Shown piece after piece: positions 36,575 through 48,680 of a stretch of 64,000 nt of DNA. The notes under the pieces were generated by a model that had not been told where the DNA came from, made no database searches, and saw only the letters and a list, made by a program, of their open reading frames with translations. The translations under genes and the position numbers were made by a program. Numbering within the stretch: position 1 is the first letter of the stretch; every line of letters starts with the position of its first letter. The DNA is from the human T2T-CHM13v2.0 reference genome, Homo sapiens, in NCBI RefSeq assembly GCF_009914755.1, contig NC_060927.1; one strand, 5' to 3'.

Positions 36575-37607
36575 GGGCAGTCAAGATGGCCGAATAGGAA
36601 CAGCTCCGGTCCATAGCTCCCAGCATGAGCGACGCAGAAGACGGGTGATTTCTGCATTTCCATCTGAGGTACCGTGTTCATCTCACAAGGGAGTGCCAGA
36701 CAGTGGGCGCGGGACAGTGGGTGCAGCACACCGTGCACAAGCCGAAGCAGGGTGAGGCATTGCCTCACTTGGGAAGCACAAGGGGTCAGGGAGTTCCCTT
36801 TCCTAGTCAAAGAAAGGGGTGACAGACGGCACCTGGAAAATCGGGTCACTCCCACCCGAATACTGCGCTTTTCCAACGGGCTTAAAAAACGGCACACCAG
36901 GAGATTATATCCCGCACATGGCTCGGAGGGTCCTACGCCCACAGAGTCTCACTGATTGCTGGCACAGCAGTCTGAGATCAAACTGCAAGGCGGCAGCGAG
37001 GCTGGGGAAGGGGCGGCCGCCATTGCCCAGGCTTGCTTAGGTAAACAAAGCAGCCGGGAAGCTCCAACTGGGTGGAGCCCACCACAGCTCAAGGAGGCCT
37101 GCCTACCTCTGTAGGCTCCACCTCTGGGGGCAGGGCACAGACAAACAAAAAGACAGCAGTAACCTCTGCAGACTTAAATGTCCCTGTCTGACAGCTTTGA
37201 AGAAAGCAGTGGTTCTCCCAGCACACAGCTGGAGATCTGAGAATGGGCAGACTGCCTCCTCAAGTGGGTCCCTGACCCCTGACCCCTGAGCAGTGTAACT
37301 GGGAGGGACCCCCCAGTAGGGGCAGACTGACACCTCACACGGCTGGGTACTCCTCTGAGACAAAACTTCCAGAGGAACGATCAGACAGCAGCATTCGCGG
37401 TTCATGAAAATCCGCTGTTCTGCAGCCACCGCTGCTGTTACCCAGGCAACCAGGGTCTGGAGTGGACCTCTAGCAAACTCCAACAGAGCTGCAGCTGAGG
37501 GTCCTGTGTGTTAGAAGGAAAACTAACAAACAGAAAGGACATCCACACCAAAAACCCATCTGTACATCACCATCATCAAAGACCAAAAGTAGATAAAAAC
37601 CACAAAG
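36575..37607 (+). promoter_or_regulatory. L1 5'UTR internal promoter with YY1 site and the ~129-bp ZNF93-binding segment
   Basis: YY1 core CAAGATGGC at 36582-36590. Segment 37354-37481, absent from L1PA2/L1HS, contains CTGCAGCCACCGCTGCTG (37420-37437). Confidence 0.85.
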
Positions 37608-38624
37608 ATGGGGAAAAAACAGAGCAGAAAAACTGGAAACTCTAAAAAGCAGAGTGCCTCTCCTCCTCCAAAGGAATGCAACTCCTCACCAGCAACGGAA
37701 CAAAGCTGGATGGAGAATGACTTTGACAAGTTGAGAGAAGAAGGCTTCAGATGATCAAACTACTCTGAGCTACAGGAGGAAATTCAAACCAAAGGCAAAG
37801 AAGTTAAAAACTTTGAAAAAAATTTAGACCAATGTATAACGAGAATAACCAATACAGAGAAGTGCTTAAAGGAGCTGATGGAGCTGAAAGCCAAGGCTCG
37901 AGAACTACGTGAAGAATGCAGAAGCCTCAGGAGCCGACGCGATCAACTGGAAGAAAGGGTATCAGTGATGGAAGCTGAAATGAATGAAATGAAGCGAGAA
38001 GGGAAGTTTAGAGAAAAAAGAATAAAAAGAAATGAACAAAGCCTCCAAGAAATATGGGATTATGTGAAAAGACCAAATCTACGTCTGATTGGTGTACCTG
38101 AAAGTGATGGGGAGAATGGAAACAAGTTGGAAAACACTCTGCAGGATATTATCCAGGAGAACTTCCCCAATCTAGCAAGGCAGGCCAACATTCAGATTCA
38201 GGAAATACAGAGAACGCCACAAAGATACTCCTCGAGAAGAGCAACTCCAAGACACATAATTGTCAGATTCACCAAAGTTGAAATGAAGGAAAAAATGTTA
38301 AGGGCAGCCAGAGAGAAAGGTCAGGTTACCCACAAAGGGAAGCCCATCAGACTAACAGTGGATCTCTCAGCAGAAACTCTACAAGCCAGAAGAGAGTGGG
38401 GGCCAATATTCAACATTCTTATAGAAAAGAGTTTTCAACCCAGAATTTCATATCCAGCCAAACTAAGCTTCATAAGTGAAGGAGAAATAAAATCCTTTAC
38501 AGAGAAGCAAATGCTGAGAGATTTTGTCACCACCAGGCCTGCCCTAAAAGAGCTCCTGAAGGAGGCACTAAACATGGAAGGGAGCAACCGGTACCAGCCA
38601 CAGCAAAATCATGCCAAATTGTAA
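37608..38624 (+). pseudogene. L1 ORF1 with a single premature stop (R49*)
   Basis: ATG at 37608 (MGKKQ), 339 codons in frame, TGA at 37752-37754 (CGA>TGA); the 248-aa ORF from 37878 runs to the natural stop. Confidence 0.95.
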
Positions 38625-38687
38625 AGACCATCGAGGCTAGGAAGAAATTGCATCAACTAACGAGCAAAATAACCAGCTAACATCATA

Positions 38688-47300: not shown

Positions 47301-48229
47301 AAAGGGCTAATATCCAGAATCTACAATGAACTCCAACAAATTTACAAGAAAAAAACAAACAACCCCATCAAAAAGTGGGCGAAGGACATGAACAGACACT
47401 TCTCAAAAGAAGACATTTATGCAGCCAAAAAACACATGAAAAAATGCTCACCATCACTGGCAATCAGAGAAATGCAAATCAAAACCACTATGAGATATCA
47501 TCTCACACCAGTTAGAATGGCAATCATTAAAAAGTCAGGAAACAACAGGTGCTGGAGAGGATGTGGAGAAATAGGAACACTTTTACACTGTTGTTGGGAC
47601 TGTAAACTAGTTCAACCATTGTGGAAGTCAGTGTGGCGATTCCTCAGGGATCTAGAACTAGAAATACCATTTGACCCGGCCATCCCGTTACTGGGTATAT
47701 ACCCAAAGGACTATAAATCATGCTGCTATAAAGACACATGCACACGTATGTTTATTGCAGCACTATTCACAATAGCAAAGACTTGGAACCAACCGAAATA
47801 TCCAACAAGGATAGACTGGATTAAGAAAATGTGGCACATATACACCATGGAATACTATGCAGCCATAAAAAATGATGAGTTCATGTCCTTTGTAGGGACA
47901 TGGATGAAATTGGAAATCATCATTCTCAGTAAACTATCGCAAGGACAAAAAACCAAACACCGCTTGTTCTCACTCATAGGTGGGAATTGAACAATGAGAA
48001 CACATGGACACAGGAAGGGGAACATCACACTCTGGGGACTGTTGTGGGGTCGGGGGAAGGGGGAGGGATAGCATTAGGAGATATACCTAATGCTAAATGA
48101 CGAGTTAATGGGTGCAGCACACCAGCATGGCACATGTATACATATGTAACTAACCTGCACATTGTGCACATGTACCCTAAAACTTAAAGTATAATAATAA
48201 TAAAATAAAAATAAATAAAAAAAAGAAAA
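44332..48229 (+). mobile_element. Host L1 (L1PA3/PA4-like), 3' part: disrupted ORF2, 3'UTR and tail
   Basis: Resumes at AAAAGGATGGAGGAAGATC; frameshift at ~45241, stop at 46573-46575, frameshift at ~47037; GAG (not ACA) at 48102-48104; right TSD AATACATATAGGATAA at 48230-48245. Confidence 0.95.
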
Positions 48230-48680
48230 AATACATATAGGATAATTACAATTTTCTAAAACATCCTCTCTGTGGAAAAAAGATTGGAAGAAAAAAATGT
48301 CAAAAATGTTATGTGATTGTCCTTAGGCTGCTGAAAGATGGGTTTCAAATATTTTAATTTTTCATTCTATTTTAAAATTTTCCTATAATGAAATGTATTA
48401 CTTTTGGAATGGAAAAAATGGTTTAAAATCCCCAAAGAACTTCATTTTACTTTTTATCCTTGTTTAATCCAGGGTAATGCTTATAAGAATAAAAGAAGTT
48501 AAAGATACTTCATGTTGAGAATTTAAGTATAGTTTGGAAGAAACTCTGAGCAAGCGATACTAAGTTATGTCTTGGCTGCCCTCAGTTAGCCATATACACA
48601 TGAAGCAAACCTCATCACTGGGTCTCCATCCCCTTTCCTTGATCAAGGTGACTATGAAACACTAAGAAGTCTGTTCACCT

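What the first reader, a model, noticed from the sequence alone, without database searches (positions are those of the whole stretch)
36575..48245. L1-in-L1 insertion in exact homologous register that rebuilds an intact chimeric ORF2
Seen: one 16-bp TSD pair (36559-36574, 48230-48245) brackets 11.7 kb ordered as old 5'UTR/ORF1/ORF2 start, young ORF2 plus Ta 3'UTR, polyA, 1.6 kb of foreign DNA, polyA, then old ORF2 resuming. AAAAGGATGGAGGAAGATCTACCAAGC occurs at 38855-38881 and 44332-44358 and starts at an endonuclease-like site (bottom strand TTTT/AT). Sequence is old-type to at least 38775 (LANW) and young-type from 38882, with no indel at the switch. Established: TPRT 5' truncation points are normally unrelated to the target, but chimeras between new cDNA and resident L1s are known from cultured-cell assays. 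Inference: the cDNA paired with the homologous host L1, so the 5' junction resolved in register. The apparent full-length L1HS is a hybrid, and the host's broken ORF2 has been displaced downstream by an open one.
Basis: partly seen in the sequence, partly recalled or inferred. Interest (0 to 1): 0.85.

Follow-up and report, generated by a model that had tools for sequence, protein, structure and literature searches.

The report
Young L1 spliced in-register into old L1
A recent human LINE-1 copy, dragging 1.6 kb of chromosome 6 behind it, landed inside an older LINE-1 in the same orientation and was joined to it at exactly the matching position, producing a hybrid element with an open ORF2 but a broken ORF1; it is a clear natural example of a process already known from cell-culture assays.

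Summary
One 16-bp target-site duplication brackets 11.7 kb. A 27-mer occurs only at 38855-38881 and 44332-44358.

At 100 subfamily-diagnostic sites, scored against 22 L1HS-type and 5 older full-length copies, the element is old-type at 45 of 47 sites up to 38773. It is young-type from 38882 on. There is no gap in 38600-39100 in 25 rows.

The "foreign" 1,580 bp is a 3' transduction from chr6, with 3 mismatches, an ATTAAA signal and a non-templated A-tail. The chr6 site is empty in this assembly. The low divergence puts the event on the human lineage.

Three points are new:
- A 236-268-bp patch (39479-39714) inside the young part carries the resident copy's own private variants, which indicates gene conversion.
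- ORF1 has a premature stop, so the hybrid is not autonomous.
- ORF2 is open at 1275 aa, with endonuclease and reverse-transcriptase domains.

The most likely mechanism is homology-directed resolution of the 5' end during target-primed reverse transcription.

This is a new natural member of a known kind (chimeric L1s), of moderate interest. Ape orthologues and other human haplotypes could not be examined.

The parts
36559..36574 (+). Left copy of the 16-bp target-site duplication of the resident (old) L1
   Evidence: Identical to 48230-48245.
36575..38854 (+). Resident old L1, 5' part: 5'UTR (36575-37607), ORF1 (37608-38624), spacer, and the first codons of ORF2 from 38688
   Evidence: Old-type at 45 of 47 diagnostic sites up to 38773. 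Identity is 94.0-95.1% to 5 old-type copies. Over 37480-38854, identity to 22 L1HS-type copies averages 95.6%.
37349..37595 (+). Region of the resident 5'UTR holding 129 nt that L1HS-type copies lack. BLAST places the block at about 37354-37478.
   Evidence: 129 positions are gapped in at least 20 of 22 L1HS-type rows and present in 5 of 5 old-type rows. This matches the 129-bp ZNF93-site deletion that arose within L1PA3 (passages of bioRxiv 10.1101/429613).
37752..37754 (+). In-frame stop (TGA) at codon 49 of the otherwise colinear 338-codon ORF1
   Evidence: Translation of 37608-38624; no indel relative to an L1HS-type ORF1. The downstream part still matches Pfam Tnp_22_trimer, Transposase_22 and Tnp_22_dsRBD.
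38774..38881 (+). Interval that contains the old-to-young switch. It is a 108-bp stretch with no informative difference.
   Evidence: The last old-type site is 38773 and the first young-type site is 38882. It is the fourth-longest of 240 mismatch-free blocks between the resident L1 and the L1HS-type majority.
38855..38881 (+). Left copy of the 27-mer: inner target-site duplication plus homology (TSD of at most 27 bp)
   Evidence: Exact repeat of 44332-44358; only 2 matches in the window and 0 in shuffles.
38882..42701 (+). Young L1 (Ta-type) from ORF2 codon 66 to the 3'UTR end, 5'-truncated at the homologous position
   Evidence: Mean identity to 22 L1HS-type copies is 99.25% over 38882-42600, against 95.3-96.7% to old-type copies. 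It is young-type at all diagnostic sites except the patch and one site with neither state. The 3'UTR reads GACACATTAG and CTTAGAG, as in 22 of 22 L1HS-type copies.
38688..42515 (+). Chimeric ORF2, open, 1275 aa
   Evidence: ORF list. Pfam Exo_endo_phos at residues 11-230 and RVT_1 at 517-773. 16 residue differences from the L1HS-type majority, with the checked motif stretches unchanged.
39479..39714 (+). Old-type patch inside the young part: a gene-conversion tract copied from the resident copy at 44956-45191. Its maximum extent is 39460-39727.
   Evidence: At 7 of 7 consecutive informative sites the hybrid carries the state of the resident 3' part. Three of these states (39521, 39706, 39714) are absent from 5 of 5 old-type copies and from at least 20 of 22 L1HS-type copies. 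A run of 7 or more has P <= 8e-8.
42604..42605 (+). Site of a 19-bp deletion in the young 3'UTR
   Evidence: Alignments. The deletion junction occurs once in the whole assembly, namely here.
42702..42737 (+). A-tract (interrupted by G at 42718 and C at 42735): the genomic A-tail of the source L1, copied as part of the read-through RNA
   Evidence: Sequence. Not present at the chr6 locus.
42738..44317 (+). 3' transduced DNA from chr6 (G000:C6:143112453-143114032)
   Evidence: The only other match in the assembly, with 3 mismatches in 1,580 bp.
44298..44303 (+). ATTAAA polyadenylation signal, 14 nt before the A-tail
   Evidence: Sequence. At chr6 the sequence continues GAAAGAATGTCTG with no A-run.
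44318..44331 (+). Non-templated poly(A) tail of the inserted RNA
   Evidence: Absent from chr6.
44332..44358 (+). Right copy of the 27-mer; the resident L1 resumes here
   Evidence: The next base, 44359 A, differs from 38882 C.
44332..48229 (+). Resident old L1, 3' part: rest of ORF2 (broken), 3'UTR and A-rich tail
   Evidence: 128 substitutions against the young part (3.3%). 1-bp deletions at 45240 and 47033 and a stop at 46573. Old-type at 47 of 53 diagnostic sites.
48230..48245 (+). Right copy of the outer 16-bp TSD

Best explanation
An older full-length L1 inserted here long ago, giving the 16-bp TSD. It retains the 129-nt 5'UTR segment, so it is of the long L1PA3 type or older.

On the human lineage, a read-through transcript arose from a Ta-type L1 that sat at chr6 (C6:143112452/3) and is absent from this assembly. 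The transcript was polyadenylated 1.58 kb downstream at an ATTAAA signal. L1 endonuclease nicked the bottom strand of the resident L1 at TTTT/AT. Reverse transcription then copied the tail, the chr6 DNA, the source's A-tract and the L1 body.

The target is itself sense-strand L1. When the cDNA reached the homologous position, the top-strand 3' end was fully complementary to it. That end finishes at or before 38881 and sits in a 108-bp mismatch-free block. It annealed to the cDNA and primed second-strand synthesis (or, equivalently, the cDNA invaded the upstream copy). The 5' junction therefore formed in exact register, leaving a duplication of at most 27 bp.

The product is resident 5'UTR, ORF1 and the first 29-65 ORF2 codons fused to young ORF2 and 3'UTR. 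During or after integration, 236-268 bp of the young part was overwritten from the resident downstream copy, and possibly two further short tracts.

What is shown and what is inferred:
- Shown: the structure, the subfamily switch, the register, the RNA intermediate, the donor locus and the conversion patch.
- Inferred: that homology directed the 5' join during integration, and the timing of the patch.
For: - TSDs and 27-mer.
- Subfamily switch: 45 of 47 sites are old-type up to 38773, then young-type from 38882. Sliding identity to L1HS-type copies rises from 0.94-0.97 to 0.99-1.00 at about 38850.
- Register: 0 gap cells in 501 columns across 25 rows.
- RNA intermediate: the 1,580 bp match chr6 with 3 mismatches. 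The A-tail and the upstream A-tract are not encoded at chr6, and ATTAAA lies 14 nt before the tail.
- Endonuclease-type nick site TTTT/AT.
- A 27-bp TSD lies within the typical 10-30 bp range (passage of bioRxiv 10.1101/2025.02.02.635956).
- In reporter assays, homology of 25 bp or more promotes recombination of L1 cDNA intermediates, and mismatches suppress it through MSH2 (passages of PMC13526784).
- SDSA-like pairing of the growing cDNA with nearby homologous DNA has been proposed before (passage of bioRxiv 10.1101/2024.08.27.596794).
- The junction sits in the fourth-longest of 240 identity blocks.
- Human-lineage timing: P(<=3 mismatches | 1.2% divergence) = 8e-6.
- Conversion patch.
Against: - The switch is resolved only to 108 bp, so the true TSD length and the exact join are unknown.
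- No L1 lies at the chr6 donor site in this assembly. The source element is therefore inferred, not seen.
- The nearest chr6 L1, 3.67 kb upstream, is not the source. It shares 0 of 10 private sites, lacks the 19-bp deletion, and is 97.7% identical.
- The conversion patches show that the two copies exchanged sequence, so a post-insertion recombination origin of the register cannot be ruled out.
- This is a single case. The identity-block rank corresponds to only about p = 0.085.
- Ape orthologues and other human haplotypes were not available.
Confidence: 0.8

Rival explanations
1. Two-step origin. The young L1 first inserted with a longer 5' end, so that it overlapped the resident sequence as a tandem partial duplication. 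Unequal homologous recombination or replication slippage between the old and young overlapping segments later deleted one copy and left an in-register join.
For: The gene-conversion patch, and two single-site matches to private resident variants, show that the old and young copies did exchange sequence at this locus.
Against: It needs an extra event. A crossover could fall anywhere in the overlap, yet the switch lies within the last 108 bp before the end of the 27-mer. For a long overlap of up to 2.3 kb that would be about a 5% outcome by my own arithmetic. No remnant of an overlap is present.
Confidence: 0.1
2. The chr6 DNA is not a 3' transduction. Reverse transcriptase first copied an unrelated polyadenylated chr6 transcript, then switched template to the poly(A) end of an L1 RNA, giving a chimeric retrocopy. 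Integration into the resident L1 otherwise proceeded as in the main explanation.
For: The chr6 site has no L1 directly upstream in this assembly. L1 reverse transcriptase is known to switch templates between RNAs (passage of PMC1920257).
Against: The chr6 homology starts directly after a 36-nt A-tract interrupted by G and C, which looks like a genomic L1 tail. At chr6 it starts at ...TTTT|AACAGG, a plausible endonuclease site. Polymorphic source elements that are absent from any single genome are usual (recalled).
Confidence: 0.07
3. DNA-level repair. A double-strand break in the resident L1 was repaired by ectopic gene conversion or break-induced copying from an L1 plus flank on chr6, with no RNA intermediate.
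For: [quoted passage not shown] 2000, seen only as cited in PMC1920257).
Against: The 14-nt A-tail at 44318-44331 is not encoded at chr6 and begins 14 nt after ATTAAA. There is an endonuclease-type site and a duplication of target sequence.
Confidence: 0.02
4. Either a chance coincidence of an ordinary random 5' truncation with the homologous position, or an assembly artefact.
For: None specific.
Against: An exact register by chance is about 1 in 6,000 positions (my arithmetic). The junctions carry all hallmarks of retrotransposition (TSDs, tails, signal), which a mis-join would not create.
Confidence: 0.01

Closest known systems
Chimeric L1s formed between a newly made L1 cDNA and an endogenous L1 in cultured-cell retrotransposition assays (Gilbert et al. 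2002 and 2005; Symer et al. 2002). Recalled: these papers are not held and were seen only as citations.
   Same: The 5' part comes from a resident L1 and the 3' part from the new copy. The two are joined at the homologous position, and the join is explained by annealing or SDSA-like use of homology.
   Different: As I recall, those cases joined to an L1 lying upstream of the target and deleted the DNA in between. Here the target site is inside the resident L1, nothing is lost, and a duplication of at most 27 bp is made. This is a germline, fixed-in-assembly event tagged by a 3' transduction.
L1 3' transduction (Moran 1999; Pickeral 2000; recalled, cited)
   Same: L1 3' end plus its own A-tract, then unique flanking DNA from the source locus, ending at a downstream poly(A) signal with a new tail.
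   Different: The source element is not present at the donor site in this assembly.
Recombinant full-length L1s flagged in human pangenome assemblies (bioRxiv 10.64898/2026.05.14.725010; passages seen)
   Same: Full-length-looking elements whose 5' and 3' parts belong to different lineages. The preprint reports 22 high-confidence and 13 probable recombinants among 2,267 screened.
   Different: In the passages seen, those were detected statistically and removed from the analysis, with no mechanism given. Here the flanking duplicate of the resident L1 and the transduction show how the hybrid arose. Whether this locus is among them is unknown, because supplements of bioRxiv preprints are closed.
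Gene conversion between L1 copies (Tremblay 2000, as cited; an intrachromosomal conversion inferred at one locus in PMC1920257, passages)
   Same: A short internal tract replaced by sequence from another L1, with the flanks unchanged.
   Different: The donor here is identified unambiguously by its private variants. It is the other half of the same split element, 5.5 kb downstream.

Membership tests
Endonuclease-dependent L1 insertion (TPRT) | Poly(A) tail at the 3' junction | tested here: met
   A-run at 44318-44331, not encoded at the donor locus.
Endonuclease-dependent L1 insertion (TPRT) | Target-site duplication | tested here: met
   27-mer at 38855-38881 and 44332-44358. The true TSD is at most 27 bp, because the left copy may be partly young L1.
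Endonuclease-dependent L1 insertion (TPRT) | Nick site resembling 5'-TTTT/A on the bottom strand | tested here: met
   The top strand reads CAAAAT|AAAAGG, so the bottom strand reads TTTT/AT.
L1 3' transduction | Unique non-L1 DNA between the L1's own A-tract and a second tail, ending after a poly(A) signal | tested here: met
   Non-L1 DNA at 42738-44317, with ATTAAA at 44298-44303.
L1 3' transduction | The unique DNA maps to one other locus | tested here: met
   G000:C6:143112456-143114031 is the only other full match.
L1 3' transduction | A source L1 lies directly upstream at the donor locus | tested here: not met
   The site is empty in this assembly. The nearest L1, 3.67 kb upstream, is excluded as the source. 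Other human haplotypes could not be searched.
Chimeric (resident/new) L1 | 5' part of one lineage and 3' part of another, joined colinearly | tested here: met
   Diagnostic-site string of old-type then young-type calls, with the switch in 38774-38882. No gaps at the join.
Chimeric (resident/new) L1 | Deletion of target DNA between the nick and the resident L1 (as recalled for the cultured-cell cases) | tested here: not met
   The resident L1 is complete apart from the insertion. Sequence is duplicated, not lost.
L1HS Ta subfamily (young part) | 3'UTR ACA and G diagnostic bases (diagnostics recalled) | tested here: met
   GACACATTAG and CTTAGAG, as in 22 of 22 L1HS-type comparators. Old-type copies read GACGAGTTAA and CTTAAAG.
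Long L1PA3 type or older (resident part) | Retains the 129-bp 5'UTR segment deleted within L1PA3 and all later lineages | tested here: met
   129 positions are absent from at least 20 of 22 L1HS-type rows and present in 5 of 5 old-type rows. Definition taken from passages of bioRxiv 10.1101/429613. The exact subfamily was not assigned because no named reference sequences were available.
Retrotransposition-competent L1 | Both ORF1 and ORF2 open | tested here: not met
   ORF2 is open at 1275 aa. ORF1 has a stop at codon 49.
Gene-conversion tract | A run of donor-specific variants, including donor-private ones, bounded by recipient-type sites | tested here: met
   7 of 7 sites in 39479-39714, of which 3 are private to the resident copy. 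The bounds are 39459 and 39728. P <= 8e-8.

The most novel reading that the evidence does not exclude
In-register capture may not be a one-off. It may be the usual outcome whenever an L1 cDNA is made inside a closely related resident L1 in the same orientation, because the target's top-strand end is itself a perfect primer on the cDNA. If so, three things would follow. This pathway would be the main source of the 'recombinant' full-length L1s now seen in pangenomes. It would make some old elements look like young full-length L1HS. And it would offer a concrete DNA-level route by which L1 lineages swap 5' modules (5'UTR and ORF1) between subfamilies.
Probability: 0.3. Interest if true: 0.65.

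Novelty: new member of a known kind. Interest (0 to 1): 0.45.

Why it matters
The locus is an unusually legible natural record. The transduction tag, both pairs of duplications and the donor-private variants allow each step to be read from one sequence: insertion, homology-guided 5' joining and later sequence exchange.

It has three practical consequences:
- An element that repeat annotation would show as a near-full-length young L1 with an open ORF2 is in fact a hybrid. It has an old, ZNF93-site-bearing 5'UTR and a broken ORF1. This matters for lists of 'intact' or ORF2-only L1 loci and for dating L1HS copies by orthology.
- It gives a testable mechanism for the recombinant full-length L1s that population surveys currently discard.
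- It fits recent reporter data showing that 25 bp or more of perfect homology channels L1 cDNA intermediates into recombination.

Tried and rejected
- Chr6 upstream L1 as the source. It ends 3.67 kb before the transduced stretch. Rejected: mixed old/young diagnostic states (32 O, 29 Y, 2 other), 0 of 10 private sites shared, no 19-bp deletion.
- Relatives of the young insert by its 19-bp deletion junction. The only match in the assembly is the locus itself, so no sibling or progenitor was found.
- Counter-examples among the 24 L1HS-type loci fetched, that is, full-length young L1s inside closely related sense-oriented old L1s. The only neighbouring L1 fragments are 66-90% identical, which is too diverged to be informative.
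- More old-type comparators. As a result, 'private to the resident copy' rests on 5 old-type and 22 L1HS-type copies.
- Rows dropped from the alignments: L013 (5' rearranged) and L026 (extra flanking L1 piece), leaving 22 of the 24 L1HS-type loci.
- Literature. Gilbert 2005, Han 2005, Jacobs 2014 and Szak 2003 are not held under the ids I tried. A search for a known 6q24 source element found 0 papers. Searches for natural in-register L1-in-L1 cases found no direct description in the held library. That does not show that none is in print.
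Full report
**Observation**

The 16-mer AATACATATAGGATAA lies at 36559-36574, directly before an L1 5' end (GGGCAGTCAAGATGGCCGAATAGG...). It lies again at 48230-48245, directly after an A-rich L1 3' end.

The 27-mer AAAAGGATGGAGGAAGATCTACCAAGC occurs in the 64-kb window only at 38855-38881 and 44332-44358, even with 2 mismatches allowed. 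None was found in 100 shuffles. The left copy is preceded by CAAAAT, so the bottom strand reads TTTT/AT. The right copy follows an A-run. The first base after the two copies differs: 38882 is C and 44359 is A.

**Comparators**

No named reference sequences were available, so I used copies from the same assembly.

- A search with 36575-42700 returned 24 full-length copies matching at 97-98% only from query position 905 on, plus their 5'UTRs at 90-96%. It also returned two copies colinear over the whole query at 95% (L010, L011).
- Three more old-type copies were fetched from the best matches to 44332-48229.
- L013 and L026 were dropped (rearranged, or carrying extra flanking L1).
- This left 22 L1HS-type and 5 old-type rows. 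They were aligned with the hybrid (36575-42700) and the resident 3' part.

**Subfamily switch and register**

Sliding 300-bp identity to the L1HS-type set is 0.91-0.97 up to about 38800 and 0.97-1.00 beyond.

I defined 100 diagnostic sites, where at least 20 of 22 young copies share one state and at least 4 of 5 old copies share another.

- Up to 38773 the hybrid reads old-type at 45 of 47 sites, with one young-type site (37340) and one with neither state.
- From 38882 to the end it reads young-type, except for three consecutive old-type sites (39533, 39555, 39600) and one site with neither state.
- Between 38774 and 38881 there is no informative site.
- No row has a gap anywhere in 38600-39100, across 25 rows and 501 columns. 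The join is therefore in exact homologous register.

Other measurements:
- The young part is 99.25% identical on average to the L1HS-type copies. The resident 3' part is 96.6% identical to them.
- Young part against resident 3' part: 128 substitutions (3.3%), two 1-bp deletions in the resident copy, and a 19-bp deletion in the young 3'UTR.
- The young 3'UTR keeps GACACATTAG and CTTAGAG, as in 22 of 22 L1HS-type copies. The resident and the old-type copies read GACGAGTTAA and CTTAAAG. By the recalled ACA/G diagnostics this is Ta.
- The resident 5'UTR holds 129 nt absent from at least 20 of 22 L1HS-type rows and present in 5 of 5 old-type rows. This matches the 129-bp ZNF93-site deletion that arose within L1PA3 and persists in later lineages (passages of bioRxiv 10.1101/429613). 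The resident is therefore of the long L1PA3 type or older.

**The 'foreign' DNA**

Bases 42738-44317 match one other place in the assembly, C6:143112453-143114032, with 3 mismatches in 1,580.

- At chr6 the sequence upstream is unique DNA (...GAACTTTT|AACAGGACACC), not an L1.
- Downstream, chr6 continues GAAAGAATGTCTG. The window instead has 14 A's at that point, beginning 14 nt after an ATTAAA.
- In the window the stretch is preceded by a 36-nt A-tract with a G and a C in it (42702-42737).

This is the structure of a 3' transduction. A read-through transcript of an L1 that sat at that chr6 site carried the L1's genomic tail and 1.58 kb of flank, and was polyadenylated at the next signal.

The source is not in this assembly. 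The only nearby L1 ends 3.67 kb upstream. It is of intermediate type (32 old, 29 young and 2 other states), shares 0 of the insert's 10 private substitutions, and lacks the 19-bp deletion. The deletion junction occurs nowhere else in the genome.

Three mismatches in 1,580 bp would have probability 8e-6 if the copy pre-dated a 1.2% human-chimpanzee divergence. The 1.2% figure is recalled. The insertion is therefore on the human lineage, although I could not inspect apes.

**Coding state**

- ORF2 (38688-42515) is open and 1275 aa long. It has Exo_endo_phos (residues 11-230) and RVT_1 (517-773) domains.
- It differs from the L1HS-type majority at 16 residues: 4 in the resident N-terminus, 6 in or next to the patch, and 6 elsewhere. 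The motif stretches I checked are unchanged. Whether it is active is unknown.
- ORF1 (37608-38624) is colinear with the 338-codon frame but has a TGA at codon 49. The hybrid is therefore not autonomous.
- The displaced resident ORF2 remainder has two frameshifting 1-bp deletions (45240, 47033) and one in-frame stop (46573).

**A second layer of mosaicism**

There are 117 sites in 38855-42600 where the resident 3' part differs from the L1HS-type majority. The hybrid carries the young state at 108 of them and the resident state at 9.

- Seven of the nine are consecutive (39479-39714), bounded by young-type sites at 39459 and 39728.
- Three of the seven (39521, 39706, 39714) are states seen in none of the 5 old-type copies and in at most 2 of the 22 L1HS-type copies. 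The donor is therefore this resident copy itself (44956-45191).
- At the three subfamily-diagnostic sites both copies are old-type, so the direction is resident to young.
- A run of 7 or more among 9 in 117 sites has probability at most 8e-8, and occurred 0 times in 200,000 permutations.
- Two further isolated sites (41003, 41608) also carry private resident variants. They may be tracts of at most 85 and 58 bp.

Timing is open. The exchange may have happened later, between direct repeats 5.5 kb apart. It may instead have happened during integration, if the growing cDNA briefly used the homologous downstream DNA as template (the SDSA-like idea cited in bioRxiv 10.1101/2024.08.27.596794). One private difference inside the tract (39503) is compatible with either.

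**Mechanism**

The 3' junction (nick site, tail, TSD) is ordinary target-primed reverse transcription.

The special feature is that the target's top strand is sense L1. Once the cDNA has passed the homologous position, the top-strand 3' end is perfectly complementary to it and can prime second-strand synthesis there. Any cDNA made beyond that point would be a flap. This gives a join in register and a duplication of at most 27 bp, which is within the usual 10-30 bp.

Reporter assays show that L1 cDNA intermediates recombine efficiently with 25 bp or more of homology, and that mismatches suppress this through MSH2 (passages of PMC13526784). Here the join sits in a 108-bp mismatch-free block. That block is the fourth-longest of 240 such blocks, and only 8.5% of resident positions lie in blocks that long. 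For a single case this is suggestive only.

Rivals:
- A longer insertion later collapsed by unequal recombination is possible, because these copies did exchange sequence, but it needs an extra event.
- Template switching from a chr6 transcript to an L1 RNA concerns only the origin of the 1.6 kb.
- DNA-level repair is contradicted by the non-templated tail.
- Chance or mis-assembly would not produce these hallmarks.

**Comparison with what is known**

Chimeric L1s between a new cDNA and a resident L1 were described in cultured cells (Gilbert 2002 and 2005; Symer 2002). I recall these papers; they are not held here and I saw them only as citations. As I recall, they came with deletions of the DNA between the target and an upstream L1. 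Here the target lies inside the resident L1 and nothing is lost.

A 2026 pangenome preprint flagged 22 high-confidence and 13 probable recombinants among 2,267 full-length L1 sequences and set them aside (passages).

My searches found no explicit description of a natural in-register L1-in-L1 insertion in the held library. Most of the older subscription literature is not in that library.

**Verdict**

The case is refined as a new, unusually well-documented natural member of a known kind. Interest is moderate. The open and more interesting question is whether this outcome is systematic.

Noticed in passing
L008 2-4284 (G000:C6:143104501-143108784): An intermediate-type L1 in the same orientation ends 3.67 kb upstream of the chr6 stretch that was transduced. 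It has a mix of old and young diagnostic states and a GACGAGTTA / CTTAAAG 3'UTR. It is not the source of the insert.
   Followed up: yes
window 47489 and 47498; also 44689, 44887, 45972, 46200: The resident 3' part carries the L1HS-type state at 6 of 53 diagnostic sites, two of them 9 bp apart. This could be short reciprocal conversion (young to old) or simply subfamily heterogeneity among the 5 old-type comparators.
   Followed up: partly
window 37340: A single young-type state at one diagnostic site inside the otherwise old-type 5'UTR of the resident element, next to the 129-nt segment.
   Followed up: no
window 42604/42605: The 19-bp deletion in the young 3'UTR lies immediately upstream of the ACA diagnostic. 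It is unique in this assembly, which makes it a convenient marker for tracing the chr6 source lineage in other genomes.
   Followed up: partly
window 41003 and 41608: Two isolated sites in the young part carry variants otherwise private to the resident copy. These may be very short conversion tracts, of at most 85 and 58 bp.
   Followed up: partly
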